A stretch of DNA of 64,000 nt from Candidatus Giovannonibacteria bacterium (GCA_016186825.1 JACPKW010000004.1:64428-128427); one strand, 5' to 3'; counted from the first letter of the stretch, positions 24,884-56,434 are shown. Numbers and translations are program-made. Notes: generated from the sequence alone by a model not told the origin.

Positions 24884-24889
24884 GCTCCA

Positions 24890-39104: not shown

Positions 39105-39689
39105 ATGAAAAAATTCACGGGAGATTTAATAAAAGTGACTGCTCTTGCGGGAGTGCTTATGGTGGTACAGGTTTTTGCATGGGATGAACCGACCCAGGCG
39201 CCTCCGGGAGGGAATGCTCCCGCGCCCTTGAATGTGAGCTCAATCGGGCAAACGAAAGCCGGCGGGTTATTGCTCAATACCGCAGGAGCGGACAACGGTT
39301 TGCTGGTTGATAAAGGAAATGTTGGAATCGGGACGCTCAACCCTTTGCAAAAACTGCATGTTGTAGGCGGTAAGGCGCAGGCGGATGATTTCTGTTTGAA
39401 CAGCGATCCCGCGAAATGTTTGTCAGGTTCAGGCGGCGGAGGCGGGGGAGGGGTTGGCCAGAAGATGTGCATTGCGAGCCACAGCGGGGACAACTGGTTT
39501 GTGACTATGCAGGTGCCATCAAGTTGGACGATTGCAGACTGCAAGAAAACAGTAAATATGAGCGCGCATCCTTTTAACGCCGCAAATCGCTACCAGGTGG
39601 GTTGCGTTTTTGCGAATTCCGTTTCAGTTGGGCCGATTGTTTCCCAGTCTGGAAATGCTGCGGCACCATCGCCGAACTGCGGCTGGTAA
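39105..39689 (+). CDS. secreted Gly-rich protein with NVGIGT...KLHV motif (tail-fibre/pilin-like)
   Basis: Signal peptide, G9 tract, 6 Cys. Confidence 0.4.
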   Translation: MKKFTGDLIKVTALAGVLMVVQVFAWDEPTQAPPGGNAPAPLNVSSIGQTKAGGLLLNTAGADNGLLVDKGNVGIGTLNPLQKLHVVGGKAQADDFCLNSDPAKCLSGSGGGGGGGVGQKMCIASHSGDNWFVTMQVPSSWTIADCKKTVNMSAHPFNAANRYQVGCVFANSVSVGPIVSQSGNAAAPSPNCGW

Positions 39690-39712
39690 TATTTTAAAAA
39701 TTAATTTATTCC

Positions 39713-40516
39713 GTGATTTTCAGATATAAATTTTTTCGGATTCCGGTAATTATGCTCGCGCTCGCTTTTTTTGCGCTGGTTTATTTTGTAAGCGCGGGCA
39801 GCGCTGATGATCTTTCAGGGTGGGCTTGGTCTGAAAATATCGGCTGGATCAGTTTTAATTCTGTGAATTTGAATAGGGGCGCGAACTACGGAGTTCGCAT
39901 CAGCAACTCTGGAAATCTTTCAGGTTATGCTTGGTCTGAAAATATCGGCTGGATAAGTTTTAACGAAAATTCCGGATGTCCGAAGTCGCCTTGCGTCCCG
40001 AGATTAAACCGCGACACTGGTGAGGTTTCGGGATGGGCGCGTGCGCTTTCCGCTGATAATAAAGGGTGGGATGGATGGATAAGTTTCCGTGGCTCGGGAT
40101 ACGGCGTTACTGTATCAAACTGCCTTTGGGATGGCTGGGCTTGGGGGTCAGATGTTGTCGGCTGGGTTCATTTCAAAGGAGCTGGATACGGTGTGGCTGC
40201 TAAAGACCAAGGCTGTATCGAAGAGCCTCTGCCACCTCCGCCACCGCCTCTGGTGTGTCCTTCTGGACAAGTGCGCCCGCATCGAACTTGCGAGGACGAG
40301 GTCTGCAAATTGGTTGATTCATGCGGAGTTTCTTCGTGCACTTCATCTTCCGAATGCAAGCCCAAAAAAGTTACCCAATGCTCGGATGGCATTGATAACG
40401 ATGGGGATGCAAAAGTTGATTATCGAACTTCACCGCTTCGTGCGGGACGCCCGAGCGATCCAGGCTGCTCCTCCCTCGAAGACGACAATGAGCGAAATTT
40501 GATTATTGAGATTTGA
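39713..40516 (+). CDS. secreted Trp-rich repeat protein with C-terminal MopE-like Cys/Asp motif; 3' end remodelled by cassette insertion
   Basis: Repeats SGWAWSENIGWISFN x2 plus degenerate copies; CSDGIDNDGDAKVDY...DPGC; the last 8 codons differ from the predicted ancestral end. Confidence 0.5.
   Translation: MIFRYKFFRIPVIMLALAFFALVYFVSAGSADDLSGWAWSENIGWISFNSVNLNRGANYGVRISNSGNLSGYAWSENIGWISFNENSGCPKSPCVPRLNRDTGEVSGWARALSADNKGWDGWISFRGSGYGVTVSNCLWDGWAWGSDVVGWVHFKGAGYGVAAKDQGCIEEPLPPPPPPLVCPSGQVRPHRTCEDEVCKLVDSCGVSSCTSSSECKPKKVTQCSDGIDNDGDAKVDYRTSPLRAGRPSDPGCSSLEDDNERNLIIEI
40446..40491. repeat. 46 bp direct repeat (copy 1) = target-site duplication of HicAB cassette
   Basis: GACGCCCGAGCGATCCAGGCTGCTCCTCCCTCGAAGACGACAATGA, identical at 41096-41141. 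Confidence 0.85.
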
Positions 40517-40576
40517 TTGGCTAAAACTTTTTTTGTGACGGTTGACCGTCCTTGATCGTTGTAATAAGGTATTTCT

Positions 40577-40807
40577 ATGGCGAAGACAAAAAAACAATTC
40601 ACCGCCATTTATAAAAAAGCCGGGGGATGGTATTTGGGATGGATTGAAGAAATTCCCGGAGTCAACAGCCAAGGCAAAACGCTTCGAGAAGTTAAAAATA
40701 ATCTCAAAGAGGCCTTAACGCTTATAATTGAAACAAATAAAGCGCTTTTGTCCAAAGATGAGCCTTCCGGCAAAAGAATTCGAGAAGTGCTCTCGGTTTC
40801 TGTTTAA
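40577..40807 (+). CDS. hicB: HicB-family antitoxin (UPF0150)
   Basis: GWYLGWIEEIPGVNSQGKTLREVKNNLKEALTLIIE matches HicB N-terminal fold. Confidence 0.6.
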   Translation: MAKTKKQFTAIYKKAGGWYLGWIEEIPGVNSQGKTLREVKNNLKEALTLIIETNKALLSKDEPSGKRIREVLSVSV

Positions 40808-40815
40808 TTTGTTTT

Positions 40816-41013
40816 TTGATGAGGCGCGCTGACTTAATCCGTCATTTAGTAAAAGAGGGTTGTATTTTTGTTCGCGAAGGGGGTAGTCATAGCGTATTTT
40901 TTAATCCAGCAACTAGGCGTTCATCAACTGTACCGCGGCATAATGAAATTCATTACTTTTTGGCTCGAAAAATTTGCCGTGACTTGGGGATAAGAGAGCT
41001 TAGAAAAAAATAA
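40816..41013 (+). CDS. hicA: HicA-family mRNA interferase toxin
   Basis: LVKEGCIFVREGGSHSVFFNP...TVPRH with the GSH signature of HicA/YcfA. Confidence 0.75.
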   Translation: MMRRADLIRHLVKEGCIFVREGGSHSVFFNPATRRSSTVPRHNEIHYFLARKICRDLGIRELRKK

Positions 41014-41095
41014 TCTCATGCAGTTACCTTTTTGCGCTAATTGTCTCATAACATTAATACAAGAAAACTTCGAACGGAAATTTTATCTATTATCA

Positions 41096-41141
41096 GACGC
41101 CCGAGCGATCCAGGCTGCTCCTCCCTCGAAGACGACAATGA
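41096..41141. repeat. 46 bp direct repeat (copy 2)
   Basis: Identical to 40446-40491; in the host-gene frame this copy continues ...DDNEKF-stop. Confidence 0.85.
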
Positions 41142-41162: not shown

Positions 41163-42788
41163 TTAATCAATTCTTTCTAGACAGTAAACCTCGTTTGCAT
41201 CCGTAGAGACAAAATATCTTTTTGTGTTTTCATTATAAACTACTTTTTGAGTAATTTTTTCAGTGACCTGGAAAACTCTTGTTGCTTTTCCAGTTTCCGG
41301 ATTGAATTCATATAAAGTTCCTCCATTAGAGCCCACATAAACATTTCCATCAATAATATTTGGGGTTGCTATAATTCTGCCACTCGTTGCAAACTGCCAT
41401 TTCATTTCTCCGGTTCTTAAATCAAAACAGTAAATATTTTTGTCTGTGGATGTAAAATAAACTTTGCTGTCTCTTACAACCGGACTCGAATAAATAATAT
41501 CTTCTGTTTTAAATTTTCCAATAACGTTTCCCGTATCAAGATCCAATGCATATTCGTTTTTATCAAATGAACCAAAGAGGAGAAGATTTGTTTCAATGTC
41601 GAATGCAAGGGAAGCTTTTATTTCGCCTCCTGTTTCATATTTCCAAAGAAGTGTTCCATTTTTCGCATTGAATAAATAAACTGTATTATCATTTCCTCCG
41701 ATCGCAACAATTTGTTTTTCTTTGCAATAAGCCGGTGAGCAGTGCACATATTCCGGCACTTTATAATCCCAAATTTTTTCTCCGGTATCCATCTTCAAAG
41801 CGGCGATTCCTCCCTTTCTTTTGAAAAGTCCAAACTCTAGTCCTATGAATACCAAATTTAAATCTGGCGCAAGAGCGGGCGATGAACCGATCCAGTCTGC
41901 TTCAGAATATTTCCAAATAATCTTTCCGTCTTTCGCATTCTGGCAGTAAAAATTACCATCGTAAGAGCCGAAATATATCATTTTTTTATTTATTGCAGGT
42001 GAAGAAAAGATACTTTTACCCATTGAAGGATAGCCAACTTTATATTTCCAAGCCACCGAACCGTCATTTTGATTTATGGCCCATAAAAATCCGTTATCAC
42101 TTCCGAAATAAATTTTTTCATTGTCCATGCACGGTGTTGATTTCGGTACAACGTGAAAAAGATTTGCATCAGGGGCCTGAAATTTCCACATAATTTTGAA
42201 TCTTTCTTGGGGAGTAAATCTTTTTTTAGGACTCATTGAAAGCCCGAAGTCTTTTAACGAGAAAAGATAGGTCAAATTAATATTTCTTTTTTTAATAAAA
42301 TCGAAATCATCATTTCCGCTGAAATTCATTATTGGAAAGATGCGGGAAACAATTTTTCCCGTTTCTTCTATAATCCGGATTTGACGCAGAAAAGTTGATC
42401 CGCTATTTATTATATCGTCAACTAAAATAATCGGCGTGTTATCCAATTCTCCTTCAATCAATTTTTGGAGTCCTATGCTTTTGCGAGCTTTTCTGATCAT
42501 AAAACCGTTTACTGGTTTGCCGATCTGATGGGAACGAAGAACAATGGCTCCAATTAACGGCACGGCGGCTAATTCTTGGCCTCCGACTTGAAATGGATAT
42601 TCTTTTTCAAATTTTTCCCAAAAAATATCAACGATTAAATCAAGCGCCTCGGGCTTTAAAAAAATATTTCTTAAATCAAACAGCCAATTTTCTCGTTCAC
42701 CAGTTGGAGAAATGATTATATGGGTTTTTGAAGTGGGAAGAGCGTCCCTTTTAATAATATTTTTAAGCTTTTCTAATTTTTGTTCCAC
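41163..42788 (-). CDS. fusion protein: orotate-PRTase-like (type I phosphoribosyltransferase) N-domain + 8-bladed PQQ/BamB-like beta-propeller
   Basis: GKPVNGFMIRKARKSIG...PIILVDDIINSGST matches PyrE motifs; C-terminal repeated YFGSxDGxLxAxxxxDGxxxWKY blades; start overlaps SagB-like gene stop. Confidence 0.6.
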   Translation of the reverse strand: MEQKLEKLKNIIKRDALPTSKTHIIISPTGERENWLFDLRNIFLKPEALDLIVDIFWEKFEKEYPFQVGGQELAAVPLIGAIVLRSHQIGKPVNGFMIRKARKSIGLQKLIEGELDNTPIILVDDIINSGSTFLRQIRIIEETGKIVSRIFPIMNFSGNDDFDFIKKRNINLTYLFSLKDFGLSMSPKKRFTPQERFKIMWKFQAPDANLFHVVPKSTPCMDNEKIYFGSDNGFLWAINQNDGSVAWKYKVGYPSMGKSIFSSPAINKKMIYFGSYDGNFYCQNAKDGKIIWKYSEADWIGSSPALAPDLNLVFIGLEFGLFKRKGGIAALKMDTGEKIWDYKVPEYVHCSPAYCKEKQIVAIGGNDNTVYLFNAKNGTLLWKYETGGEIKASLAFDIETNLLLFGSFDKNEYALDLDTGNVIGKFKTEDIIYSSPVVRDSKVYFTSTDKNIYCFDLRTGEMKWQFATSGRIIATPNIIDGNVYVGSNGGTLYEFNPETGKATRVFQVTEKITQKVVYNENTKRYFVSTDANEVYCLERID

Positions 42789-42789
42789 T

Positions 42790-43536
42790 CTATTGTAATT
42801 TGCCTAAAACTGATAAGTGAACTGTTGATTCTTCTTCATTGTCAATATCCAGCATTAGTTCTATTTTTTCATTTGAATAGCCAGCTAAATGGCAGCACCC
42901 TATGTTCAAAGCCGAGCTGATAAGCGCAATATTTTGCATTAAATGCCCTGATTCATTTAAAACGATTTTATATCCGAAGTCTTTGTATTTGATAAAATTT
43001 CTGTCCCAAACTGACGTAAGGATAACAAAAAGAGCTGCGTCCTTTGACCATGGATAAAACATAGCTTCTTTAATAATTTTTATTCCTTCAGATTCAATCA
43101 GCTCTTCAAGCGCATGTTTTTTTACATTGTAGTGATAAATGCCTCTGTCTAAATCAGTTACATTTTGTGCTCCGATATAAATTTCTAAGGGGTATCGTGA
43201 CCCGCCTGAAGGATAGAATCTTTTTGATCCATTCCATTCCCCATTATCCGGAATTTTTCTGATTCCGCCCCCGAAATATAGAAGAGTCGAAAGTTCTTCA
43301 AATGTAATCGGTTTATTGCTGAATTCTCTTGTTGAATGGCGGTTTTTAAGGGCAGATTCTAAATTTCCAAGCTCTAAAAAATTCCATGATAAAGGAATCA
43401 AATTTAATCGAGGATATTCTTTGAAATACACTGTTTTCCAGGATTTCGGCCAAGTTTTCGGGTCGCTAGGCCCAGTCCCGGATTTAAATTTAAAATTTAT
43501 TTCTTTATGAAATAATTTTGAGAGAGCTCCAATCAT
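42790..43536 (-). CDS. SagB/McbC-type (nitroreductase-fold) dehydrogenase of azole RiPP pathways
   Basis: NRHSTREF and YPSGGSRYPLEIY motifs; 4 nt overlap with YcaO gene. Confidence 0.75.
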   Translation of the reverse strand: MIGALSKLFHKEINFKFKSGTGPSDPKTWPKSWKTVYFKEYPRLNLIPLSWNFLELGNLESALKNRHSTREFSNKPITFEELSTLLYFGGGIRKIPDNGEWNGSKRFYPSGGSRYPLEIYIGAQNVTDLDRGIYHYNVKKHALEELIESEGIKIIKEAMFYPWSKDAALFVILTSVWDRNFIKYKDFGYKIVLNESGHLMQNIALISSALNIGCCHLAGYSNEKIELMLDIDNEEESTVHLSVLGKLQ

Positions 43537-45005
43537 GGAAAAGGATGAGGTTCTTGATTTAATGTTAGCGCGGCTTTATATCCCATTTTTTCAGGGATTT
43601 CTTTCAGGCGTTTGCCTCCGAAATATGGGATTGACTCGTTTAAGTGCATTGGCTGGAGTTCAGAAATAATTACTTTTGCGCTAAAAATTCCAAGCTTTTC
43701 AATTTCAGGTGTAGTTATTTTAACATAACAAGCTTCATAATTTTTTTTGCTTAATTCATCTGATAGGATTTTTAATTTTTCCTTGAAATACTCTTGTGTT
43801 TCTCTCAACTCGAACATTCGTTTTTTCAGATCTATCTTCACTTTTTCTCCGCTAAATATGAATTCTATTTTGTTCAAATTTTCTGGCCTGGACCAATAAA
43901 TTAATCTTTCTTCTCGTCCTATTTGTTTTTCATTTATATCATTTTTGAATTTTCTTTTTAATGAATAACGAACTATTAATGCTTCTGACAACGAATCGAT
44001 TATTGCTTGCTTAAAGTCAAAATCAGCGCTCGCACCTACACAAAAAGCAGGGCCTAATCCTGTTCTATCGAGTATTACGGCGAGGTAGATATGAACGGGA
44101 AAATCGCTCGGGAGTCGAACTATGTATGGTTCGAGCCTATATCGCTGAAAGTTTTTAATTATTGCATTTATTTCCTCATCTTGAGCACTGACGTAATCTA
44201 GATCGACAACTTCGGGCGATAATTTATTTAAATAGGTGATCATAAATGCATCTCTTTCGATAACTTCCATAATTCCTTTCACTATAGCTTCAACCATGTT
44301 TCTACCCGAGGCTAACCCTGTTGTTATGCACCATCTAAGAAGCGGTTCTTTTCGATTTTGTGTCGGGCTTAATCTTTGATTTCTATAAGCAAAGTTGGAG
44401 CTTGCAAGCTGAAGAGGGCAATACATTTTTTCGTTGCCCTGAACTGAAAAAGCCTCGAGCCACCTAAGCTCTGTCTGAGTATTAAATTTGAGATTCGATA
44501 AATTACTTTTTTGCTCTTCCGAAAAACCGGCAAGTTTAAATATATTTAATGCCTTGCCTTTCAAATCTTCATAATTGCTTTCAACTGAATTTTTCAGCAA
44601 ATGGTCTGAACTGGACCAAAGTGATCGTTCAACTCCTTCTGCGGTCGCGCGCCATATCGCCTTCACTTCGTTATTGAATTCCACTCCTGTGCCTAATTTT
44701 ATATTGCTTTCTTTGTTGCTATTCACGTTGTAAATATATATGAAAGGTTCATCTGGATAACGTCTCCCCTTTTTTATATTTTCTATTATTCCCATTGACT
44801 GAAGTTGGTACAGAGTATCAATGGCAACCAGCATCTCTTGACTTTTGTCAGCTAAAGTATCAGGGATTTTAACTAAAAGTTCAGAGCCAAAATATTTTTC
44901 AAGGTTTTTTAATAAAAACTTGGGCCATATAGAGAAAATCCCACCCTTATTAGGTTTTTTTAGGAAATCTTCGGCTTTTTTAGTAATTTCAAGTTTTTTT
45001 CCCAT
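43533..45005 (-). CDS. ycaO: YcaO-domain cyclodehydratase (TOMM D protein) with C-terminal PxPxP motif
   Basis: TGLASGRNMVEAIVKGIMEVIERDAF YcaO signature; C-terminus ...QEPHPFP. Confidence 0.8.
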   Translation of the reverse strand: MGKKLEITKKAEDFLKKPNKGGIFSIWPKFLLKNLEKYFGSELLVKIPDTLADKSQEMLVAIDTLYQLQSMGIIENIKKGRRYPDEPFIYIYNVNSNKESNIKLGTGVEFNNEVKAIWRATAEGVERSLWSSSDHLLKNSVESNYEDLKGKALNIFKLAGFSEEQKSNLSNLKFNTQTELRWLEAFSVQGNEKMYCPLQLASSNFAYRNQRLSPTQNRKEPLLRWCITTGLASGRNMVEAIVKGIMEVIERDAFMITYLNKLSPEVVDLDYVSAQDEEINAIIKNFQRYRLEPYIVRLPSDFPVHIYLAVILDRTGLGPAFCVGASADFDFKQAIIDSLSEALIVRYSLKRKFKNDINEKQIGREERLIYWSRPENLNKIEFIFSGEKVKIDLKKRMFELRETQEYFKEKLKILSDELSKKNYEACYVKITTPEIEKLGIFSAKVIISELQPMHLNESIPYFGGKRLKEIPEKMGYKAALTLNQEPHPFP

Positions 45006-45129
45006 TTACACACCTATAGTAGTTGTGGCTTCTAAATTAAATGTCTATTATTAAATTGTGCTGATAACTTCAATATAGATAGGTTTAATTTACATTAGCG
45101 TCTTAAAAAAGGGAAGCCGTGGTTTTTAC

Positions 45130-46269
45130 GTGATTGACTCAATAAATCAAAAGAAAATAGGCGCACTAGATATAAAAAATATATTATTATTAGTTATTAT
45201 TTTAATAATAGGAGTATTCTTGTACACTAATTTTTCTTTAAAACCCGATTTAAAACCCGATTTTCAGCAAGCTTTATCTCAGGCAGCAGAGCTGAGAGAT
45301 ATAGATTCCAAAAAAGCTGCTGAGAAATTTGAGATCGCACTTGCTTTGGCAAAAACCCCCGAACAAAAAGCTATTGCTAAATTATTCATTGCAAATAATT
45401 ATTTGGATGTTGAGCCTGCAAAGGGGATGAAGCTTTTAAAAGAGATTGTGGCAGATAATTCTATGCCTTCGATGCAACGTGCTTTTGCAATACAATTTAT
45501 TGCGGATAAATATATGCTGGGTTTACATTCTACGAAATTTGCTCGAGAAAATATTTTCAATGATTCTCCTTTCGATTCGTTTATTTTACCTGGTAATGAT
45601 AAAGATACAGATGCTGCGAATATAATATTGAAAGACCGAGTTGGCATTAGAAAAATTTATGAATTTGCCACAGATACTTTCCCCATTCCGGTCGCGAATT
45701 TTTGGGTAGCAGAATGGCATGCAAGAAGAGTGTTAATGTCAAACGAATATTCAAACTTGCCACTAGTTGAAGAAAGAGTGGAATATATCAAGAAAACTAA
45801 AGAATATATTGAAAAAGGTGATTTGGCGCTACCTGCTTTTATTTTGCATGAAGGTGAAAACAGTCAAGTGGCTTACGCTTATTGGGTGAAGGGATTAGCG
45901 CTCGGGTATCTTTATGAACTAGAAAAAAAATCTGAGTTACAAATTGAAGCGGAAGAAAGCTTTACAAAAGCATTGCAGATTCTGAAAAGTGGTTCGACTG
46001 ATTATATGAAATTACAATCCCTTTGGGCTAGTTTCTATTATGCTGATTTTCTTGCAACAAGTTTTGGTGTTGACAAAAAGCTTGAAGTTAAGAAAAGTCT
46101 TTCATATATTATGGAGCCACGTTTTTTTAATGATTTCGTTTTTTTGAAATATTTAAGGGTTGTAAAAGATGATAAAGACAGCTATACCCGAAAAAGAATA
46201 ATGCGATTGACTGAGCAGAATGTAGAATTCAAAGATTTTTTAATACGTTTAGGATGGGAGTTCAATTAG
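45130..46269 (+). CDS. hypothetical membrane-anchored alpha-helical protein (379 aa), cluster-associated
   Basis: N-terminal TM helix; no Cys; possible immunity or scaffold role (inference only). Confidence 0.35.
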   Translation: MIDSINQKKIGALDIKNILLLVIILIIGVFLYTNFSLKPDLKPDFQQALSQAAELRDIDSKKAAEKFEIALALAKTPEQKAIAKLFIANNYLDVEPAKGMKLLKEIVADNSMPSMQRAFAIQFIADKYMLGLHSTKFARENIFNDSPFDSFILPGNDKDTDAANIILKDRVGIRKIYEFATDTFPIPVANFWVAEWHARRVLMSNEYSNLPLVEERVEYIKKTKEYIEKGDLALPAFILHEGENSQVAYAYWVKGLALGYLYELEKKSELQIEAEESFTKALQILKSGSTDYMKLQSLWASFYYADFLATSFGVDKKLEVKKSLSYIMEPRFFNDFVFLKYLRVVKDDKDSYTRKRIMRLTEQNVEFKDFLIRLGWEFN

Positions 46270-46297
46270 TAAATTTTATTTTGCAACAAATAAAAAT

Positions 46298-46648
46298 ATG
46301 GGAGTCATAAAAAAACCAACTCGCAAGATCATTTCTCTAATACTTCCTGTCTTGAGCATTTTGGGTTTGGCTTTAATGAAAATACCCAAAGGCGAATATC
46401 ATTTAAGGGAGGCTGACAGAAAAATTTCTAAACTCTTTAAAATTGATAACTTTGCAGTTAATGAAGTTAATGCTGATATTGTCGAAGGCGGTTCCGGCGG
46501 AGATGGTGGTGGTTCTGTAAGTGATGACGGTTCTGGTGGTTGCGGAAGTGGCGGTTGCGGTTCTGGCGGAGATGGTGGAGGTACTGATGGCGGATGTGAT
46601 GCGGGAGATGGTGGTGATGACAGTGGCGACGACGGCGACGGCAAGTAA
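46298..46648 (+). CDS. candidate TOMM precursor peptide with Gly/Ser/Cys/Asp-rich core (microcin B17-like)
   Basis: C-terminal 50 aa GGSGGDGGGSVSDDGSGGCGSGGCGSGGDGGGTDGGCDAGDGGDDSGDDGDGK; alternative start at 46376 would give a soluble 38 aa leader. Confidence 0.5.
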   Translation: MGVIKKPTRKIISLILPVLSILGLALMKIPKGEYHLREADRKISKLFKIDNFAVNEVNADIVEGGSGGDGGGSVSDDGSGGCGSGGCGSGGDGGGTDGGCDAGDGGDDSGDDGDGK

Positions 46649-46667
46649 ATAATTTTTTTTCTCTTTA

Positions 46668-48089
46668 TTGAAAAGAATTTCTTTTTCTTTGTATTTTATT
46701 ATATGGAAAATCATGGAAAATTGTACTGAAGATCTAATAATAAGACCTGAAAAATCATTCAAACCTAGTATAAATTTTTCAAATCTTCTTGGAAATTCTC
46801 ATTTCGCAGAAAATTTAGAACCAATAATAAGTTCTCTCCGCGAATCGCAGTATTGGCCATTATCAAAGTTGGAGCAGATTCGCGAAGAGCGATTTCGAAA
46901 TTTATCTCATGATATTCGATCTTCTAAATTTTGGAGTGAATATTTCAAGAAATATGCAATTTCTACTTCTTCAAGTGAGGTATCAGAAGAATTATTAAAA
47001 TTTCCTGTTATTAATCGAAATGACTTCAGGAACTGGGGTAAGAATGTCTTTATTTATCAAAAAGATTTAAATATATTCAAAACTATTACAAGTGGGACAA
47101 GCGGGACTCCTTTAGAAATTATTCTGGACAAAAAAACTGCATCTATTGCTTATTTTTCCTTTTTCTTCAGAAATCCAATTTTTGAAAAAATTGATTTAGG
47201 TATATTGAATAGAAAATTTATTGTTAGTTTGGGAAACCATGGTTTAAGAAGATGGTTTAGGGATTTTATTTATCTATTTTCCATTTCTCCATCAGATCTT
47301 GAAAAAAAAGAAGTTCGCCAGAAAATATATAAACAGTTTGAAAAAATACCTGATGGAATGCTCGGAGGGTTTGCGTCTGTTGTCTTGAAGTTCGCTGAAT
47401 ATGCCGCCGATGAAAAAATAAAATTTCCGGGTCTATCTGCGATTAAAATCAGCAGTGAAGGGATTGGTTTGAATGATAGAACTTTTATTGAAAAGACTTT
47501 TGGCGCTCCTGTCCTGAATGAATTGAATTGTTCTGAAGCTGGCATGATTGGGTTCGAATGCCCTGAAAACCTTGGAAAATTTCATCTTAATGCTGAAAGA
47601 ATAATCATGGAGATTGTTGGAGAAAACAATGAAGCATTAGGGAAAAATAAAGAAGGTAAAATTATAATCACAGCCTTGGACCGTATAGCGATGCCTATAA
47701 TTCGTTATGAAATAGGAGATCGTGGAAAATTACTTTCTGAAATTTGTCGTTGTGGAAGAACTCTGCCATTGTTTGAATTTACTGGTCGTCAAAACAATAG
47801 TTTAATTTTTTCTGACGGGAAAAAAATTCGTTCAATTATAATACAAAGTGCATTAATCAAAAGTGGTTTGGCGAAAAAATGTAATTTCATCCAACTAAAG
47901 CAGCTAAATCCATACGATTTCCAATTCACAATTATTCCTTCACCTCTCTATTCCAAAGAGGATGAAACAAAAATAAGGGTGATTCTAACAAATCTTACGG
48001 AAAACAGAAAAATAAAAATTGATTTCGAATATAAAAACATTTCCGATTTAAAAAATAATAAACCATCTTTTTTTGTTCCTTTGCAATAA
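46668..48089 (+). CDS. PaaK/CapK/F390-synthetase-family adenylate-forming enzyme
   Basis: TSGTSGTPL AMP-binding motif, IRYEIGDRG; table start is TTG, probable ATG at 46713. Confidence 0.55.
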   Translation: MKRISFSLYFIIWKIMENCTEDLIIRPEKSFKPSINFSNLLGNSHFAENLEPIISSLRESQYWPLSKLEQIREERFRNLSHDIRSSKFWSEYFKKYAISTSSSEVSEELLKFPVINRNDFRNWGKNVFIYQKDLNIFKTITSGTSGTPLEIILDKKTASIAYFSFFFRNPIFEKIDLGILNRKFIVSLGNHGLRRWFRDFIYLFSISPSDLEKKEVRQKIYKQFEKIPDGMLGGFASVVLKFAEYAADEKIKFPGLSAIKISSEGIGLNDRTFIEKTFGAPVLNELNCSEAGMIGFECPENLGKFHLNAERIIMEIVGENNEALGKNKEGKIIITALDRIAMPIIRYEIGDRGKLLSEICRCGRTLPLFEFTGRQNNSLIFSDGKKIRSIIIQSALIKSGLAKKCNFIQLKQLNPYDFQFTIIPSPLYSKEDETKIRVILTNLTENRKIKIDFEYKNISDLKNNKPSFFVPLQ

Positions 48090-48092
48090 AAA

Positions 48093-48122
48093 AGAGGAGC
48101 GATGTTACAAATCGCTCCCCCT
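48093..48122. terminator. bidirectional hairpin between convergent genes
   Basis: GGAGCGATGTTACAAATCGCTCC stem-loop flanked by A-run and C/T-run. Confidence 0.5.
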
Positions 48123-48142
48123 TAGAGCTCCGTCGGCAGATG

Positions 48143-48760
48143 CTAATTGCGGCGAGCAATATCCGGACTTCGGTTGCCGGAGTTAATGAGTTCGATCTCC
48201 CTTGTTCCACCAGGAGATCCTCGAGAAAAGCTCTCCATTCTGTACTTCGCGATGACCTTTTTGCTTTCGCAGTAATAATAGGTCATTTTGAGTTCGATGG
48301 ATCGAGCACTCTCCGTCCTCGAGAGCTTTATCGCACTGCAGTTGCCGGCGGCCGTAGAAATGTTTTCCGTCCCGACGATTGCAGTGCCTGTTTCCATGCG
48401 GGTGCTCCTCGGACTGGTCGGCCTCATATAATTTCCATCCCATTTATCAGCGAGTGGAAATTTTAAGAGGTCTTTTCCTGTTCCAGGCAACATATCTTGG
48501 AGCACGTAGACCTCTTGCCCGTTGGTGTCGAGGGGAACTTCCCGATTCTTAGATCTGTCGAGCCAAAAAAAGGAGAAACTCGAACCATCATACACGGCGA
48601 GGTATTCCTCACCGTTCATGACAGCCATTTCCTTCCTAACGAAGTCCTTTTCGACGACCTTGAAGACCCAGAAGTCTCCCGAGTTGTAGCTCGGTTGCGC
48701 ATGAGCAAACGAGGTTAAGGCCGCTAAAGCAATGACGACGAAAAAAAACTTTATTTTCAT
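48143..48760 (-). CDS. secreted hypothetical protein (205 aa)
   Basis: Signal peptide MKIKFFFVVIALAALTSFAHA. Confidence 0.45.
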   Translation of the reverse strand: MKIKFFFVVIALAALTSFAHAQPSYNSGDFWVFKVVEKDFVRKEMAVMNGEEYLAVYDGSSFSFFWLDRSKNREVPLDTNGQEVYVLQDMLPGTGKDLLKFPLADKWDGNYMRPTSPRSTRMETGTAIVGTENISTAAGNCSAIKLSRTESARSIELKMTYYYCESKKVIAKYRMESFSRGSPGGTREIELINSGNRSPDIARRN

Positions 48761-48869: not shown

Positions 48870-49694
48870 ATGGAAAGTTTTAGCAAAAAAGATATTCTGA
48901 TTTCTTTAATTTTTTTACTGTTTTTAGGATTTTTTACGTTCCAAGATGATTTCTCTGGAATTGCATGGGGGAAGTATAAAAATGCAGATTTTGCCCTGGC
49001 GCTCAATGGAAATAATGCAAAGCTCGCATATGAAATTGGAGATTATTATTTCAACGGGCGTGCATGTGTTGAAACAGCCGGAAAAGGATGCTATGACCTG
49101 GAGAAAGCGGAGGCGGGATATAAAAAAGCGATTTCGATAAACCCGAAATTTGAACGCGCGCATTATCAGCTTGCGAGGATTTATTTTGTTAAAGGCGAGC
49201 GGGAGCGAGCGATGAAAGAAATTAATTTGGAACTCGAATATTATCCCGATTACAAGCGGTCTTATTACGTGCGCGGGCTTATAAACGGCTATGACGGCAG
49301 GTTGGAAGCTGCGGAAAAAGATTTTCTCGAATTTATTTCTTGGGCGCCTTACGAATGGGGAGGATATAACGATCTTGCATGGATTCTCTTGAAATCAAGC
49401 AAATACGAGCAAGCAAAAGAAATTGCGCTTGCGGGATTAAAATATCCGAGCACCCGAGATAACCCCTGGCTTTTGAATGCTTTAGGAGCGTCAGAGCTTA
49501 ATTTAAGGGATTATGATTCTGCAAAAAGTACTTTCGAAAAAGTCAGCGAAATTCTCATGGATTTTCCAGAAAGCGAATTTGAGAAAGCTTATCCGGGTAA
49601 TAATCCGCTATCAGTCGGGGCTGGGCTTACGGCATTCAAAACCGCCGTTTTAGAAAATTTAAAAAAAAGCGAGGAAGGGACGCGCAGGGATTAA
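48870..49694 (+). CDS. TPR-repeat protein, membrane-anchored
   Basis: N-terminal TM; repeated Ala/Tyr/Leu 34-residue-like helices (AHYQLARIYF..., YYVRGLI...). Confidence 0.5.
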   Translation: MESFSKKDILISLIFLLFLGFFTFQDDFSGIAWGKYKNADFALALNGNNAKLAYEIGDYYFNGRACVETAGKGCYDLEKAEAGYKKAISINPKFERAHYQLARIYFVKGERERAMKEINLELEYYPDYKRSYYVRGLINGYDGRLEAAEKDFLEFISWAPYEWGGYNDLAWILLKSSKYEQAKEIALAGLKYPSTRDNPWLLNALGASELNLRDYDSAKSTFEKVSEILMDFPESEFEKAYPGNNPLSVGAGLTAFKTAVLENLKKSEEGTRRD

Positions 49695-49712: not shown

Positions 49713-51719
49713 TTGCTCGAAATGAGTGTCTTAAGACTTATAATAAGATTAATGCAGAAATGGATTGAGACCAGCGTTTCGGAGAAAATCACAACAGGGC
49801 TCGGGTTTTTTATTGTTTTGTTATTTGCTGTAGCCGTCTTTAATTCGAGCGCTGCAAAAGTCGGTCAGAGCGCAAAATGGACCCAGTCTGTAGGGAACGC
49901 AATAACAGTTCCGGCATGCGTTGGAAGCGAAGATCATGATGTCATGATCAATCTTTCCTTGACAATGGATTGCGCCTCTGACCCGAAGCGTGTTGTTTTG
50001 ACTTGGAATGATATCAATGAAATTGTGTCAGAGAGCGGACAAGATACGGTTAAATATGATATTTACAGGTGCGATGGTGCTTGCGTTGAATTTATTAAAA
50101 TTGGGAGTGTCCCCGATACTTTGGATGGTATTGGTAATTACACATTTTCTGACAGCTCCGGCGTTCCAAGCAGTTCGACCTATCAATATCAAATCGAGGC
50201 GTCCGATGCCGTAAACAAAACGGCTTATAGTAATATAGCTTCCATAGTCCCAACTTGTGGCGGGGGTTCTCCCGAGCTCTCTGCGGATTTGACGGCGGAA
50301 CCGTCTAGCGGGGCGGCGCCTTTGAACGGCGTGGATTTGTTCGCAAGAATTGACGGGACTGCACAGGGCGCGATTAATTATTCTTTCGATTGTAATCCGG
50401 CGGATGGCAATGATACGCCAGAAGAGCAATATAAAGGCGTTGGAGGTGGGCTCGTTGGCCATTGGAAATTTGATGAGGCGGCTGACGGAAATATTGTCGC
50501 GCGGGATTCATCCGGGTATGATAATGTCGGCACGCTTATCAACGGCCCTGTAAGATTGGACGGCAAACTCGGCCGCGCCCTGGATTTCAACGGTTCGAGC
50601 AATTATGTTGAAATTTCTGATTCTGCCTCGCTTGATGCTTCCCAGATGACATTTTCTGCGTGGATTCGCACAACAGATGATCAGGGCATGATCGCGGAGC
50701 GCTACAGTTACGATCCCATAACCGGGGGACATGGCTGGAGGCTTGAGGTTTGGCCCGGCGGAACTCTATTTGGAGCAGTTTTTATAAACGGCAATAATTA
50801 TAATCCATGGCCTTACGGCAAGGGTCCTGTAATTAATGACGGGAGCTGGCATCACGTTGCAATGACCGCGGACGGCTCAACAGGAATATGGTACTTCGAC
50901 GGAAATGTCGCCACGGGACCGGGACTTAATAATCCATTCGCGCTTGCGGGACCGGTTGATGATACCGATGCGGGCGTTACAATCGGCAATGGTGTGGCGG
51001 GCTTCTTTAACGGTGTAATTGACGATGTTCGTTTGTATAACCGCTCGCTTTCAGCTGGGGAAATCAAAGATATGTATGACGCGAATGTCGCAGGATATCT
51101 TGACGGGAAAAAAGCAGTTGACATTTGCAGTTATCCTGTGAAAGGAGATTATTTTCCAAAAGTAACGGTTACGCGCGGGGGCAAAGCAGCAGAGGACACG
51201 ACGGACATTCCAGTTTCTGTAACAGGTTGTACGGATGATAGCCAGTGTGCAACCGGAAACTGCAACGAGGCAACCGGAATTTGCGAAGCCGCCCCCAATT
51301 TCTTTCTCGAAGATTCGGGTCCGATGAAAGCGAGAATTATCGGGAACAGTTCAACCTGGTCGGAGCCGACTACGATTAGCGTGACAAATGTCGTCAACTT
51401 TTCGGATAATGTTAAGCTTTCGCGCGATGGTTCAAAACCCGTCCGGGACTGCGTTACCAATGTGGAAAAAATCTTTTCCGGCACCTATAACTTTGATCCC
51501 TCGCAGATTTCATCTCCCTACTCAAGCGGATCGGAATTTAAAATCAGAGTTGCCGCCACGAATCCTCCGGGCTGCTACAAAATACCTATCAAGGGTGAAG
51601 GCGGAGGAATTTCGAGAGAGCACGAGGTTAAGCTGAACGTAGATATAAATAATCCCTCGTATAAAGAAGTATTTGCACCGACGCTTCGGTTATTGGCATC
51701 CCTGTTTAATATTTTTTAG
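49713..51719 (+). CDS. large surface protein: Fn3-like + LamG/concanavalin-like lectin domain + shared C-terminal module
   Basis: LVGHWKFDE...GSWHHVAMTADGS...IDDVRLYNRSLSAGEI is a LamG_3 signature; C-terminal ~200 aa homologous to C-terminus of 52119 protein. Confidence 0.55.
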   Translation: MLEMSVLRLIIRLMQKWIETSVSEKITTGLGFFIVLLFAVAVFNSSAAKVGQSAKWTQSVGNAITVPACVGSEDHDVMINLSLTMDCASDPKRVVLTWNDINEIVSESGQDTVKYDIYRCDGACVEFIKIGSVPDTLDGIGNYTFSDSSGVPSSSTYQYQIEASDAVNKTAYSNIASIVPTCGGGSPELSADLTAEPSSGAAPLNGVDLFARIDGTAQGAINYSFDCNPADGNDTPEEQYKGVGGGLVGHWKFDEAADGNIVARDSSGYDNVGTLINGPVRLDGKLGRALDFNGSSNYVEISDSASLDASQMTFSAWIRTTDDQGMIAERYSYDPITGGHGWRLEVWPGGTLFGAVFINGNNYNPWPYGKGPVINDGSWHHVAMTADGSTGIWYFDGNVATGPGLNNPFALAGPVDDTDAGVTIGNGVAGFFNGVIDDVRLYNRSLSAGEIKDMYDANVAGYLDGKKAVDICSYPVKGDYFPKVTVTRGGKAAEDTTDIPVSVTGCTDDSQCATGNCNEATGICEAAPNFFLEDSGPMKARIIGNSSTWSEPTTISVTNVVNFSDNVKLSRDGSKPVRDCVTNVEKIFSGTYNFDPSQISSPYSSGSEFKIRVAATNPPGCYKIPIKGEGGGISREHEVKLNVDINNPSYKEVFAPTLRLLASLFNIF

Positions 51720-54491: not shown

Positions 54492-55159
54492 TCGCGCTTG
54501 CGGTTATTTATTCAAAAGGGGAAATTTCCAAGGATTCAAAAATTTCAGAATCAAACACTGCCGCTCAAGGGAAGAGTGTAACTTCGGGCCTAGACAATCT
54601 GCGGCCGATTGATTCGGGCGATCATATTTTGGGAAATCCAGACGCGGTTTTAAAAATCGTGGAGTATTCTGATTTGGAATGCCCTTTTTGCAAAACTTTT
54701 CATAAAACAATGCATCAGATCATGGATGAATACGGAAAAGACGGGCGTGTAGCCTGGGTTTACCGCCATCTGCCGATCGCGTCGCTTCACCCGCGCGCTT
54801 TTAAAGAATCCGAGGCTTCCGAATGCGCAAATGATCTCGGCGGAAATCAGAAATTCTGGGCGTATATCGACCGGATTTTTGAAATAACACCATCAAATAA
54901 CGGTCTTGATCCGAATCAGCTTTTGGAAACGGCTCGGGCGCTCGGATTTAATGAAAGCGATTTTAAGGGTTGCCTGGATTCTGGGAGGCATTCAAAGCGG
55001 ATTTCAGAGGATATTTCAAATGCATCAAAGATAGGAGTTGACGGGACTCCCTATAGCATTGTCGTTTTGCCTGATGGAAAAAAACTTACGCTTTCGGGCG
55101 CGCGTCCATATGAGGAAGTCCGAGCTTTTATTGATCAAGCGCTTGGATTCATCAAGTGA
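54431..55159 (+). CDS. DsbA-family thiol:disulfide oxidoreductase, membrane-anchored
   Basis: CPFC active site in thioredoxin fold, N-terminal TM. Confidence 0.7.
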   Translation: MDNNKDSRLIPASIIAAGFLIALAVIYSKGEISKDSKISESNTAAQGKSVTSGLDNLRPIDSGDHILGNPDAVLKIVEYSDLECPFCKTFHKTMHQIMDEYGKDGRVAWVYRHLPIASLHPRAFKESEASECANDLGGNQKFWAYIDRIFEITPSNNGLDPNQLLETARALGFNESDFKGCLDSGRHSKRISEDISNASKIGVDGTPYSIVVLPDGKKLTLSGARPYEEVRAFIDQALGFIK

Positions 55160-55226
55160 TTTAAATTGCCTCGGATGTTAAAATTATGATAGCTTTAAGC
55201 GGAGCTATTATTGGGTTTTAGAGTCT

Positions 55227-55403
55227 AAAGTATTTTATGGCTCATTGCGATTCTTGCGGCCATGATCATGTAAAAGCTTGCGGATGCGGATGCCCGCGGA
55301 CTGTTTGTGTAGTGTGTAAACACCACCATTCGAAAGAAGACGGCGGTTGTTTTTGCGGATGCAAAGTAAAAGTCAAGGATACCGAAGAAGAAGGAGATGA
55401 GGA
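55227..55403 (+). CDS. unannotated Cys/His-rich small protein (58 aa; 12 Cys, 6 His), putative metal-binding
   Basis: MAHCDSCGHDHVKACGCGCPRTVCVVCKHHHSKEDGGCFCGCKVKVKD + acidic tail; below ORF-table cutoff; opposite-strand 88 aa ORF is likely spurious. Confidence 0.45.
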
Positions 55404-55468
55404 ACAATCTTGAAAAACGAAACCTGAAACCTTTGTTTCTTATATTATTAAAATGATGCTTCAAGCCC

Positions 55469-56434
55469 ATGTTATATGATCTGATCATCATTGGCGGCGG
55501 ACCAGCGGGAGTGGCGGCGGGAGTCTATGCAGGGAGAAAACGCCTGAAAACATTGCTGGTTACTGATGCTTTCGGCGGGCAATCGCTTGTTTCCAATGAA
55601 ATCCAAAACTGGATTGGCACAAAGACTATCTCTGGTTTTGAGCTTGCCCAGAAAATGGAGGAACATCTTCGTGCGCAGGAAACGGTTGAAATAAAAATCC
55701 CGGAGAGAATTAAAGCTGTTGAACTTAGAGAAAAAAACTTTTTGATCCAGACGGAAAAAGGAGAGGCTTACGAAACGAAAGCGCTGATTGTTACGGCGGG
55801 CGCAAAGCGCAAGCGCCTCGGAGTTCCCGGCGAAGATAAATTCGAGGGAAGAGGCGTGGTTTATTGTTCCACGTGTGATGCGCCTTTGTTTGGAGACAAA
55901 ACCGTTGCGGTAGTTGGCGGAGGAAATGCTGCTCTTGAGGCCGTGGTTGATCTTCTCCCTTATGCAAAAAAAGTTTATTTATTGGTGCGCGGCGAGAAGT
56001 TGAAAGGCGATCAGATCACGCAGGAAAAAGTCGAGCGCGCCGAAAAAGTGGAGGTTATGTTTAATACGGAAATTGCTGAAGTAAAGGGTTCAAATTTTCT
56101 TGATACTGCGGTTATTAAAAATAGAAAAACCGAAGAAATGCGCGAACTTCCAGTTGAGGGCGTTTTTGTTGAAATAGGATCCGAACCGAATTCCGAAATT
56201 TTAAAATCACTTGTGGAGCTGAATCATTTCGGCGAGGTTGTAGTTGATCATCGGACAGGAAAAACTTCGCGTTCAGGAATTTTCGCGGCGGGCGATATCA
56301 CGGATGAACTTTATAAGCAGAATAATATTTCCGCGGGGGATGGTGTAGCCGCTGCGCTTTCAGCCTATAATTATCTTTTGGAGCGGGAGCATCAAAGCCC
56401 GGCTTCAGAAAAACTAAACGGAAATGGCAGCTGA
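55469..56434 (+). CDS. trxB: thioredoxin-disulfide reductase
   Basis: IIGGGPAG FAD motif, redox CSTC, VVGGGNAALE NADPH motif. Confidence 0.85.
   Translation: MLYDLIIIGGGPAGVAAGVYAGRKRLKTLLVTDAFGGQSLVSNEIQNWIGTKTISGFELAQKMEEHLRAQETVEIKIPERIKAVELREKNFLIQTEKGEAYETKALIVTAGAKRKRLGVPGEDKFEGRGVVYCSTCDAPLFGDKTVAVVGGGNAALEAVVDLLPYAKKVYLLVRGEKLKGDQITQEKVERAEKVEVMFNTEIAEVKGSNFLDTAVIKNRKTEEMRELPVEGVFVEIGSEPNSEILKSLVELNHFGEVVVDHRTGKTSRSGIFAAGDITDELYKQNNISAGDGVAAALSAYNYLLEREHQSPASEKLNGNGS

What the first reader, a model, noticed from the sequence alone, without database searches (positions are those of the whole stretch)
41163..48089. Microcin B17-like azole RiPP (TOMM) gene cluster in an AT-rich island
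Three translationally coupled minus-strand genes encode a YcaO cyclodehydratase, a SagB/McbC-type dehydrogenase and a PRTase::beta-propeller fusion. The YcaO ends in the PxPxP tail typical of azoline-forming enzymes. On the divergent arm are an uncharacterised membrane protein, a 116 aa ORF whose C-terminal 50 residues are almost entirely Gly/Ser/Cys/Asp (like the MccB17 precursor core), and a PaaK/F390-synthetase-like adenylating enzyme. No ocin-ThiF/E1-like C-protein is recognisable. The block looks visibly more AT-rich than the flanking housekeeping genes and is bounded by a HicAB insertion and a convergent terminator, which suggests horizontal acquisition. RiPP clusters are rarely documented in very small-genome (CPR-like) bacteria. 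The missing C-protein together with the unusual coupled fusion gene suggests a non-canonical architecture.
Basis: partly seen in the sequence, partly recalled or inferred. Interest (0 to 1): 0.85.

Follow-up and report, generated by a model that had tools for sequence, protein, structure and literature searches.

The report
Azole enzymes plus secreted acidic peptide
A tiny-genome (CPR) bacterium carries a horizontally acquired gene island in which azole-forming enzymes sit next to a membrane-anchored, exported Gly/Asp/Cys-rich peptide, and that peptide turns out to belong to a widespread, undescribed CPR peptide system that often exists without those enzymes.

Summary
YcaO and the SagB-type dehydrogenase have intact catalytic motifs, and the 116-aa ORF is a real, conserved neighbour, so azole modification of its Gly-flanked Cys/Ser is likely. 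It is not microcin B17-like in architecture. The precursor has a basic N-terminus, a transmembrane/signal-like helix, a conserved spacer and an A-x-A|D junction resembling a signal-peptidase site. No E1-like/RRE partner, immunity gene or exporter was found.

About 160 related loci show that the conserved core is this peptide plus two membrane-anchored TPR scaffolds (p379 or C5, and C2 at 48870-49694) plus the PRTase::beta-propeller fusion. Of 16 distinct fusion-anchored loci, 13 have a TPR partner and only 7 have YcaO. Peptides in YcaO-less loci are Cys-poor, Asp-rich homologues, some with no Cys/Ser/Thr. YcaO/SagB therefore looks like an add-on to an uncharacterised CPR secreted-peptide module.

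CPR LAP clusters were already reported in 2020. The accessory architecture was not found in the literature. Verdict: new variant of a known kind, interest 0.65.

The parts
40446..40491 (.). Direct repeat copy 1 (46 nt, the 3' end of gene 39713-40516). It marks the HicAB insertion.
   Evidence: family D4, 100% identical to copy 2
40577..40807 (+). HicB-like antitoxin. It is a boundary element, not part of the peptide system.
   Evidence: PF21748 UPF0150-like, 4.1e-07
40816..41013 (+). HicA toxin (boundary element).
   Evidence: PF07927 HicA_toxin, 4.9e-13
41096..41141 (.). Direct repeat copy 2, at the left edge of the AT-rich island. The Logan contigs L001-L004 all end about here.
41163..42788 (-). 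Cytoplasmic fusion of an OPRT-like type I phosphoribosyltransferase (residues ~1-195) and a PQQ/BamB-like beta-propeller (~196-541). It is the best conserved gene of the module.
   Evidence: catalytic loop R99, K100, K103 and PRPP motif D124, D125, G130 are invariant in 25 sequences; aligns to M. tuberculosis OPRT 5hkf at 2.5e-11
42790..43536 (-). SagB/McbC-type FMN-dependent azoline dehydrogenase.
   Evidence: TIGR03605, 145 bits (cutoff 78). K183 in 97% and Y184 in 100% of 74 sequences. CyaGox 1.8e-17, McbC 1.6e-08
43533..45005 (-). YcaO cyclodehydratase of the TOMM SagD type, with a ~110-aa N-terminal extension that is not an RRE.
   Evidence: E123, E126, R127, E247, E250, R251, D252; C-terminal PHPFP; no RRE-like fold
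45006..45129 (.). Divergent intergenic region between the two operon arms. It is the presumed promoter region, but no promoter was shown.
   Evidence: The promoter scan listed no site within 45006-45129; its nearest hits (45178-45226, minus strand) lie inside the p379 coding region, and the scan found no excess of promoter-like sites over shuffled sequence
45130..46269 (+). p379: one N-terminal TM helix (residues 15-36) followed by an all-alpha TPR/14-3-3-like solenoid, predicted to lie outside the cytoplasm. It is a peptide-binding scaffold rather than an enzyme.
46298..46648 (+). p116 precursor peptide.
   Evidence: a conserved family of 54 peptides in 52 loci
46328..46384 (+). Hydrophobic signal/anchor helix of p116 (residues 11-29, mean Kyte-Doolittle 2.41), preceded by 4 Lys/Arg.
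46475..46645 (+). Core/tail of p116 (residues 60-116), after the V-N-A|D junction. Composition: G27, D13, S7, C3, T1. It contains GGCGSGGCGSGG.
46668..48089 (+). PaaK/F390-synthetase-like adenylate-forming enzyme. An alternative ATG start lies about 45 nt downstream.
   Evidence: TSGxxGxP, YxxGD and K465 conserved; PaaK structures, 1e-15; called as 458 aa
48091..48123 (.). 13-bp hairpin between convergent genes, at the right edge of the island.
48870..49694 (+). C2: a TM-anchored TPR protein.

Best explanation
The island encodes a CPR-specific exported ribosomal peptide system with an azole-forming pair attached to it.

p116 is made with a basic N-terminus, a transmembrane/signal-like helix, a conserved spacer and an A-x-A|D junction, followed by a 57-residue Gly/Asp/Ser/Cys tail. 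In the cytoplasm, the YcaO uses ATP to cyclodehydrate the Gly-flanked Cys (and possibly Ser) of the tail, and the SagB-type flavoenzyme oxidises the azolines to azoles. No E1-like/RRE partner is involved, so the YcaO must recognise the spacer or tail directly or through another protein.

The N-terminal helix then takes the tail across the membrane (Sec-type). There it meets two membrane-anchored TPR scaffolds, p379 and C2, and is either kept anchored or released by cleavage after the A-x-A motif.

The PRTase::propeller fusion and the PaaK-like adenylating enzyme belong to the older, YcaO-independent part of the module. They most likely act on the same acidic tail or pathway through carboxylate-activating or phosphoribosyl chemistry.

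The product is more likely an extracytoplasmic acidic, metal-binding or surface peptide than a microcin B17-type intracellular toxin.

Shown here: the gene content, catalytic motifs, peptide architecture, co-occurrence patterns and fold of p379. Inferred: the substrate relationship, export, cleavage, and the chemistry of the PRTase and PaaK-like enzymes.
For: The YcaO/SagB catalytic motifs are intact and conserved. YcaO and SagB are adjacent in 71 of 81 YcaO-anchored loci.

p116-like peptides have one architecture in 23 of 23 inspected examples: K/R N-tail, 19-aa helix with KD 1.7-2.6, 14-30 aa spacer, A-x-A|D junction and a K/R-free G/C/S/D core. The leaders of YcaO+ and YcaO- peptides align as one family.

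Tail Cys fraction is higher when YcaO is present (0.10 vs 0.04, p=0.015), and Asp/Glu is higher when it is absent (0.34 vs 0.18, p=3e-5).

p379 is a confident TM + TPR-like scaffold. C2 is TM + TPR.

DsbA-like, rhodanese and membrane proteins sit inside YcaO-less versions of the module, which fits an exported, Cys-bearing tail.

The PRTase loop and PRPP motif are invariant. The fusion co-occurs with p379/C5 in 13 of 16 distinct loci and with YcaO in 7 of 16.

Precedent: bufferins are RiPPs with Sec signal peptides that are heterocyclised before export and bind metal outside the cytoplasm.
Against: There is no biochemical evidence, and all links are guilt by association.

The A-x-A motif lies 14-30 residues after the hydrophobic helix, much further than the usual signal-peptidase I c-region. 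Cleavage is therefore uncertain, and the helix may be a permanent anchor.

Several YcaO-positive loci have tails with no Cys, only Ser/Thr (L022, L023, L097, L106, L153, L159).

The YcaO scores just below the TIGR03604 trusted cutoff (200 vs 219 bits).

Without a C-protein, known TOMM YcaOs are poorly active (from my own knowledge of the field).

Loci called YcaO-less are known only to +-10 kb, so the genome could encode YcaO elsewhere.

The peptide statistics are not corrected for phylogenetic relatedness.
Confidence: 0.55

Rival explanations
1. One reading: a classical microcin B17-like TOMM antibiotic cluster. p116 would be a leader-core precursor, its azole-rich product a secreted toxin (for example a gyrase or ribosome inhibitor), and the PRTase::propeller and PaaK-like enzymes unusual tailoring accessories of the YcaO.
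For: The core contains GGCGSGGCGSGG, similar to MccB17. YcaO and SagB are intact, and SagB matches McbC. Sharrar et al. interpret CPR YcaO/nitroreductase clusters as LAPs and cite phazolicin as an analogue.
Against: No McbB/E1-like or RRE protein was found. Pfam found no immunity gene, pentapeptide-repeat protein or ABC exporter among the cluster's genes. The leader is a TM/signal helix. Only 3 Cys occur in a 57-aa tail dominated by Gly and Asp. The same peptide family, TPR partners and PRTase::propeller occur without YcaO/SagB, sometimes with tails that have no azole-forming residues. In Kaiserbacteria the module sits next to the ribosomal-protein operon, which suggests a physiological rather than an accessory weapon role.
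Confidence: 0.15
2. p116 is not the YcaO substrate. It would be a structural, membrane-anchored acidic surface peptide of the TPR/PRTase module, and the YcaO/SagB pair would modify a different, unidentified peptide or protein and merely be co-located or co-transferred with the module.
For: The module occurs without YcaO. Some YcaO-positive loci have Cys-free tails. No recognition domain for the peptide was found in the YcaO.
Against: The peptide gene lies directly beside YcaO in dozens of loci from different CPR lineages. Cys content of the tail tracks YcaO presence. No alternative Cys/Ser-rich small ORF was seen in the island. YcaO-SagB is inserted precisely between the peptide and the PRTase::propeller gene.
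Confidence: 0.15
3. The PRTase::propeller is a nucleotide-metabolism enzyme, such as an OPRT or PurF-like step in salvage or purine synthesis. Its linkage to the peptide genes would then be positional rather than functional.
For: It aligns to genuine OPRTs with the catalytic loop conserved. It lies next to a true PurD in class-A loci and is fused to a formyltransferase domain in some homologues.
Against: It scores far below the pyrE equivalog cutoff (58 vs 107 bits). The fusion to a propeller is conserved over more than 120 homologues. It is tightly operonic with SagB (1-nt gap) in the window and in many loci. It co-occurs with p379/C5 in 13 of 16 distinct loci across rearranged gene orders.
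Confidence: 0.1

Closest known systems
Linear azol(in)e-containing peptide (LAP/TOMM) clusters reported in CPR genomes (Sharrar et al. 2020, mBio, PMC7298704)
   Same: YcaO next to a nitroreductase-type (SagB) dehydrogenase and a small Cys/Ser-rich ORF in Parcubacteria/Microgenomates. The window's cluster would be detected as this class.
   Different: That report describes YcaO + nitroreductase + peptidase and an 84-aa precursor at antiSMASH level. It does not describe the TM/signal-like leader, the A-x-A|D junction, the TPR scaffolds, the PRTase::propeller fusion or the PaaK-like enzyme, nor that the peptide module exists without YcaO. In my loci the peptidase (M16)-type clusters are a separate group with short, non-hydrophobic leaders.
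Microcin B17 system (McbABCDEFG)
   Same: A Gly-rich core with isolated Cys/Ser flanked by Gly. A YcaO (McbD-like) and an FMN dehydrogenase that matches McbC at 1.6e-08.
   Different: No McbB-type E1/RRE scaffold and no McbEFG export/immunity genes. The leader is a membrane helix, not a short cytosolic leader. The tail is dominated by Asp/Gly with only 3 Cys. The accessory genes are unrelated.
Bufferins and related MNIO-modified RiPPs (PMC11626156)
   Same: The precursors carry an N-terminal Sec-type signal. Cys residues are converted to five-membered heterocycles before export. A disulfide or Dsb context lies outside the cytoplasm. The product is an extracytoplasmic metal-binding peptide rather than an antibiotic.
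   Different: The enzymes are an MNIO (DUF692) plus DUF2063, not YcaO/SagB. Bufferin cores fold as small proteins. Their signal peptides are canonical, whereas here the A-x-A lies 14-30 residues after the helix. Metal binding is not shown here.
Stand-alone (C-protein-independent) YcaOs such as the bottromycin enzymes (from my own knowledge, not tested here)
   Same: The YcaO acts without an E1-like/Ocin_ThiF partner or a discrete RRE.
   Different: Those systems lack a SagB partner of this type and have follower or short leader peptides. There is no sequence closeness: the closest solved YcaOs are MJ1094, MusD, TruD and LynD, at E values from 1e-12 to 7e-5.

Membership tests
TOMM/LAP (YcaO-dependent azole RiPP) cluster | YcaO domain with both ATP/Mg-binding Glu motifs | tested here: met
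   PF02624 at 8.7e-46. E123, E126, R127 and E247, E250, R251, D252 are conserved in at least 85% of 89 relatives.
TOMM/LAP (YcaO-dependent azole RiPP) cluster | Score above the curated TIGR03604 (SagD family) cutoff | tested here: inconclusive
   200.3 bits against a cutoff of 219.25. It is still by far the best NCBIfam hit; methan_mark_1 scores 81 bits and TIGR00702 57 bits.
TOMM/LAP (YcaO-dependent azole RiPP) cluster | C-terminal PxPxP motif of azoline-forming YcaOs | tested here: met
   The protein ends ...EPHPFP. H487, P488 and F489 are invariant in 26 sequences.
TOMM/LAP (YcaO-dependent azole RiPP) cluster | SagB/McbC-type FMN dehydrogenase with the Lys-Tyr motif, adjacent to YcaO | tested here: met
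   TIGR03605 at 145 bits, cutoff 78. K183 and Y184 are present in 97% and 100% of 74 sequences. PDB hits are CyaGox and McbC. The genes overlap by 4 nt.
TOMM/LAP (YcaO-dependent azole RiPP) cluster | E1-like/Ocin_ThiF-like C-protein or an RRE that binds the leader | tested here: not met
TOMM/LAP (YcaO-dependent azole RiPP) cluster | Adjacent precursor with a Cys/Ser/Thr-containing core | tested here: met
   The p116 tail has 3 Cys, 7 Ser and 1 Thr, with Cys flanked by Gly. Homologous peptides lie next to YcaO in many loci.
TOMM/LAP (YcaO-dependent azole RiPP) cluster | Azol(in)e heterocycles in the product | not testable with these tools
   This needs MS of the modified peptide.
Microcin B17-type system | McbB scaffold, McbEFG export/immunity, and a short cytosolic leader | tested here: not met
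   No such domains were found in the cluster's genes. The leader contains a 19-aa hydrophobic helix with KD 2.41.
Sec-signal RiPPs (bufferin-like) | N-terminal signal-type hydrophobic segment with an A-x-A cleavage motif | tested here: inconclusive
   The helix and a conserved A-x-A|D junction are present in 23 of 23 examples. The spacing of 14-30 aa is atypical, and neither export nor cleavage was tested.
Sec-signal RiPPs (bufferin-like) | MNIO (DUF692) enzyme with a DUF2063 partner | tested here: not met
   No such Pfam hits in the cluster.
Type I phosphoribosyltransferase (OPRT-like) | PRPP-binding acidic motif and catalytic flexible loop | tested here: met
   IILVDDIINSGST and IRKARKSIGLQKLIEG align to M. 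tuberculosis OPRT 5hkf. R99, K100, K103, D124, D125 and G130 are invariant. The protein is not an OPRT equivalog: 58 bits against a cutoff of 107.
HicAB toxin-antitoxin | HicA toxin domain next to a HicB-type antitoxin | tested here: met
   PF07927 at 4.9e-13 and PF21748 at 4.1e-07.

The most novel reading that the evidence does not exclude
The PRTase::propeller, the PaaK-like or PurD-type carboxylate-amine ligases and (in some lineages) a fused formyltransferase would define a CPR-wide pathway. This pathway would decorate the carboxylate-rich poly-Gly/Asp tail of an exported, membrane-anchored ribosomal peptide with phosphoribosyl(amine)-derived groups. The result would be an anionic, metal-binding or teichoic-acid-like surface polymer built on a ribosomal peptide, held by extracellular TPR scaffolds. 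YcaO/SagB azole formation would be a lineage-specific extra modification. This would be a new class of peptide modification and a new envelope component of CPR bacteria.
Probability: 0.1. Interest if true: 0.9.

Novelty: new variant of a known kind. Interest (0 to 1): 0.65.

Why it matters
CPR/Patescibacteria are mostly uncultured episymbionts, and their cell-surface biology is largely unknown. This locus shows that what genome miners label 'LAP clusters' in CPR are, at least in this large group, built on a conserved module. The module comprises an exported acidic peptide, two extracellular TPR scaffolds and a catalytically intact PRTase::beta-propeller fusion, none of them with a described function.

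For RiPP enzymology it offers three things: a YcaO/SagB pair that works without any recognisable C-protein or RRE, a precursor whose leader is a membrane/signal helix, and a testable candidate for phosphoribosyl or carboxylate-directed peptide modification.

For CPR biology it offers a candidate surface or metal-handling structure that is widespread and sometimes horizontally exchanged.

Tried and rejected

(2) p379 and the alternative partner C5 being homologues. hhalign probability is 3%.

(3) C5 as an active papain-like leader peptidase. There is only a weak Peptidase_C70 hit (E 0.008), and no Cys is conserved in 26 sequences. This is left open.

(4) p205 (48143-48760) as the counterpart of the small secreted K32/K10 proteins. 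Probability is 1-2%, and p205 has no relatives in any locus.

(5) The LamG protein at 49713-51719 as the counterpart of the secreted C3 family. No similarity; it is a paralogue of the next gene.

(6) An anti-phage defence system. PADLOC gives only marginal PRTase hits.

(7) A phage or plasmid vector for the island. Only generic propellers and YcaOs at 29% identity or less were found.

(8) The word-indexed homologue search for p379 found only itself. The exhaustive HMMER search was needed.

(9) The literature has no paper combining YcaO, phosphoribosyltransferase and beta-propeller.

(10) A motif-based DNA scan for precursors independent of any anchor gene was considered and dropped. The conserved junction is too short for a specific pattern.

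Full report
OBSERVATION. On the minus strand are YcaO (43533-45005), SagB (42790-43536; 4-nt ATGA overlap with YcaO) and a 541-aa fusion (41163-42788; 1 nt after SagB). On the plus strand are a 379-aa protein (45130-46269), a 116-aa ORF (46298-46648) and a 473-aa enzyme (46668-48089).

Pfam and NCBIfam confirm the domain calls. YcaO hits PF02624 at 8.7e-46, and its best family is TIGR03604 TOMM SagD at 200 bits, just under the 219-bit cutoff. SagB hits TIGR03605 at 145 bits against a cutoff of 78. The fusion combines a pyrE-like PRTase with a PQQ_2/Beta-prop_ACSF4 propeller. The last enzyme is PaaK/F390-synthetase-like.

The island has 34.4% GC against 45.1% for the rest of the window, and its GC3 is 23-31% against 40-58%. 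HicB/HicA are bracketed by a perfect 46-nt direct repeat (40446-40491 and 41096-41141), which duplicates the 3' end of the upstream gene. A 13-bp hairpin at 48091-48123 separates the convergent genes. The flanks are housekeeping genes (gyrB, nusG, rplK, secDF, rpoBC, ftsK, recA; gap, pyrG, fpg, rpe, tkt). The source is a Candidatus Giovannonibacteria genome.

ENZYMES. The YcaO keeps both Glu-x-x-Glu-Arg(-Asp) ATP/Mg motifs (E123, E126, R127; E247, E250, R251, D252; at least 85% of 89 relatives) and ends in PHPFP. The SagB keeps the Lys-Tyr pair (97% and 100% of 74 sequences). It matches the cyanobactin oxidase CyaGox (1.8e-17) and McbC (1.6e-08) among solved structures. The PaaK-like enzyme keeps the adenylate-forming TSGxxGxP and YxxGD motifs and a C-terminal Lys, and it matches PaaK structures.

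This is an azoline/azole-type pair, not an S12-type or thioamide-type YcaO. The JGI name 'S12 methylthiotransferase accessory factor' is only the generic COG label.

THE PEPTIDE. A genome scan anchored on the YcaO gave 80 loci, mostly Patescibacteria. In about 30 of them a small ORF beside the YcaO has the same architecture as p116: 2-7 Lys/Arg, a 19-residue hydrophobic helix (mean Kyte-Doolittle 1.7-2.6), a 14-30-residue spacer, a junction A-x-A|D-(V/A/I)-P (V-N-A|D-I-V in the window), and a 25-98-residue tail of Gly/Cys/Ser/Asp with almost no Lys/Arg.

The junction obeys the -3/-1 rule of signal peptidase I, but it lies unusually far from the helix. This is not a microcin-type cytosolic leader. 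The nearest documented precedent is the bufferin family, whose RiPP precursors carry Sec signal peptides, are heterocyclised before export and bind metal outside the cytoplasm. That paper also notes that a signal peptide was suggested for cinnamycin.

THE MODULE IS LARGER THAN THE FINDING AND DOES NOT DEPEND ON YcaO. Clustering the neighbours shows a recurrent order: C3 (secreted, Ig-like), C2 (TM + TPR, ~270 aa), then p379 or C5 (TM + helical repeats, ~390 aa), the peptide, YcaO, SagB and the PRTase::propeller. C2 corresponds to the window gene at 48870-49694 (TPR).

The PRTase::propeller is the best conserved component, with more than 120 full-length relatives at 49-61% identity. It aligns to M. 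tuberculosis OPRT with the catalytic loop and PRPP motif conserved. R99, K100, K103, D124, D125 and G130 are invariant.

I anchored the one metagenome scan on this fusion, which gave 80 loci. Many long loci carry the fusion with p379 or C5, C2 and often PaaK-like genes, but no YcaO/SagB within +-10 kb. After dereplication, 16 distinct loci have at least 6 kb on both sides. Of these, 13 have p379/C5, 12 have C2, 7 have YcaO, and 7 have a TPR partner without YcaO.

In these YcaO-less loci the small peptide is still there, next to p379 or C5, with the same leader and junction. Its tail, however, is Asp/Gly-rich and Cys-poor. Examples are L100 '...KVNA|DVAGDDDGDDGDDGDDGGDGGDGD', which has no Cys/Ser/Thr, and L126 and L148, which end in C-x5-C.

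Across 54 peptides, the Cys fraction is 0.10 with YcaO and 0.04 without (p=0.015). The Asp/Glu fraction is 0.18 with YcaO and 0.34 without (p=3e-5). These values are not corrected for relatedness. YcaO-less versions also contain DsbA-like, rhodanese and membrane proteins, which fits an exported Cys-bearing tail.

The Gly-rich ORF belongs to a conserved membrane-anchored peptide family that also occurs without YcaO/SagB neighbours. The tracking of Cys content with YcaO still supports the peptide as the YcaO substrate where the pair is present.

WHAT THE ACCESSORY ENZYMES SUGGEST. In one YcaO-less group the order is PRTase::propeller, PurD (GARS N/A/C domains, 243 bits), PaaK-like, methyltransferase, PaaK-like, small secreted protein, C5, peptide, C2. 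Some homologues are fused to an N-terminal formyltransferase domain, or to AMMECR1 plus an alpha/alpha toroid. Others sit beside radical-SAM genes.

A PRPP-dependent transferase, carboxylate-activating ligases and a carboxylate-rich peptide form a chemically coherent set. No step is demonstrated, so I give it only as the novel case. PADLOC finds no defence system.

HORIZONTAL ACQUISITION. The window's island is 10.7 GC points below its surroundings. In 48 comparator loci the module is on average 2 points below its flanks, and never more than 8.8. Recent acquisition from a lower-GC CPR donor is therefore plausible. No phage or plasmid relative was found, and the nearest YcaO homologue is only 55% identical. 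The partner gene C2 has near-native composition, which suggests that an incoming cassette joined or replaced part of a resident module. The four identical Logan contigs all end at the second copy of the 46-nt repeat, most simply because the repeat breaks the assembly.

PRIOR KNOWLEDGE. Sharrar et al. 2020 reported 110 LAP clusters in 93 CPR genomes, 89 with a nitroreductase next to YcaO. The class is therefore known at genome-mining level. A 2025 paper misreads CPR YcaOs as McrA-thioamidation genes. I found no paper that combines YcaO with a phosphoribosyltransferase and a beta-propeller, and none on the signal-type leader or the TPR partners in CPR.

VERDICT. The best description is a CPR-specific module built from an exported acidic peptide, TPR scaffolds and a PRTase::propeller, carrying a C-protein-less YcaO/SagB azole-forming add-on, in a recently acquired island. 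It is a new variant of a known kind. The function of the core module is unknown and potentially new.

Noticed in passing
window 24700-28900: About 4 kb directly after rpoC has no convincing long ORF on either strand. It contains only a small RelE/ParE-like toxin-antitoxin pair on the minus strand (26814-27077 and 27074-27298). The 24.7-26.8 kb stretch looks non-coding, and the Rfam gathering scan found nothing there.
   Followed up: no
window 40446-41141: The HicAB cassette is bracketed by a perfect 46-nt direct repeat that duplicates the 3' end of gene 39713-40516. All four independent Logan contigs carrying the island end inside repeat copy 2.
   Followed up: partly
window 39105-40516: Two adjacent secreted-looking proteins have poly-Gly and poly-Pro runs and a repeated 'GWAWSENIGWISFN' motif (61-nt direct repeat at 39798 and 39903). 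Neither has a Pfam hit.
   Followed up: no
window 54431-56434: A DsbA-like thioredoxin-fold protein and a thioredoxin-reductase-like flavoprotein lie a few kb downstream of the module. In YcaO-less relatives (L126, L148) a DsbA-like gene, a rhodanese and a small membrane protein sit inside the module.
   Followed up: partly
L136 8130-10652; L006 14415-17663; protein P0236: Longer forms of the fusion exist: Formyl_trans_N::PRTase::propeller (840-849 aa) and PRTase::propeller::AMMECR1::alpha/alpha-toroid (1082 aa). In L148 a separate 669-aa AMMECR1 protein lies between the peptide and the fusion gene.
   Followed up: partly
L099, L100, L108, L109, L112-L115, L122, L123: In this YcaO-less gene order a genuine PurD (GARS) gene is always next to the PRTase::propeller. 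It is followed by two PaaK-like genes and a methyltransferase, and then by C5, a pure Gly/Asp peptide and C2.
   Followed up: partly
L161 1077-8717; L162 8623-10002; L097 10883-13067: The PRTase::propeller lies beside radical-SAM genes, five in a row in L161. This hints that the fusion associates with several kinds of peptide-modifying enzymes.
   Followed up: no
L025, L028, L029, L031, L032, L036, L038, L044, L057, L059: A separate group of YcaO-SagB loci, many labelled Gammaproteobacteria in the records, has an M16 peptidase downstream and short non-hydrophobic leaders on Cys-rich precursors. This resembles the YcaO/nitroreductase/peptidase CPR cluster drawn by Sharrar et al.
   Followed up: partly
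window 48143-48760: A 205-aa secreted-looking protein with native GC (49%) lies between the island and the TPR partner gene. It has no relatives in any of the ~160 fetched loci and no family hit.
   Followed up: partly
window 13221-14912: A 563-aa ORF matches ThyX (Thy1) only in its C-terminal part (residues 391-525), which suggests an unusually extended or fused thymidylate synthase.
   Followed up: no
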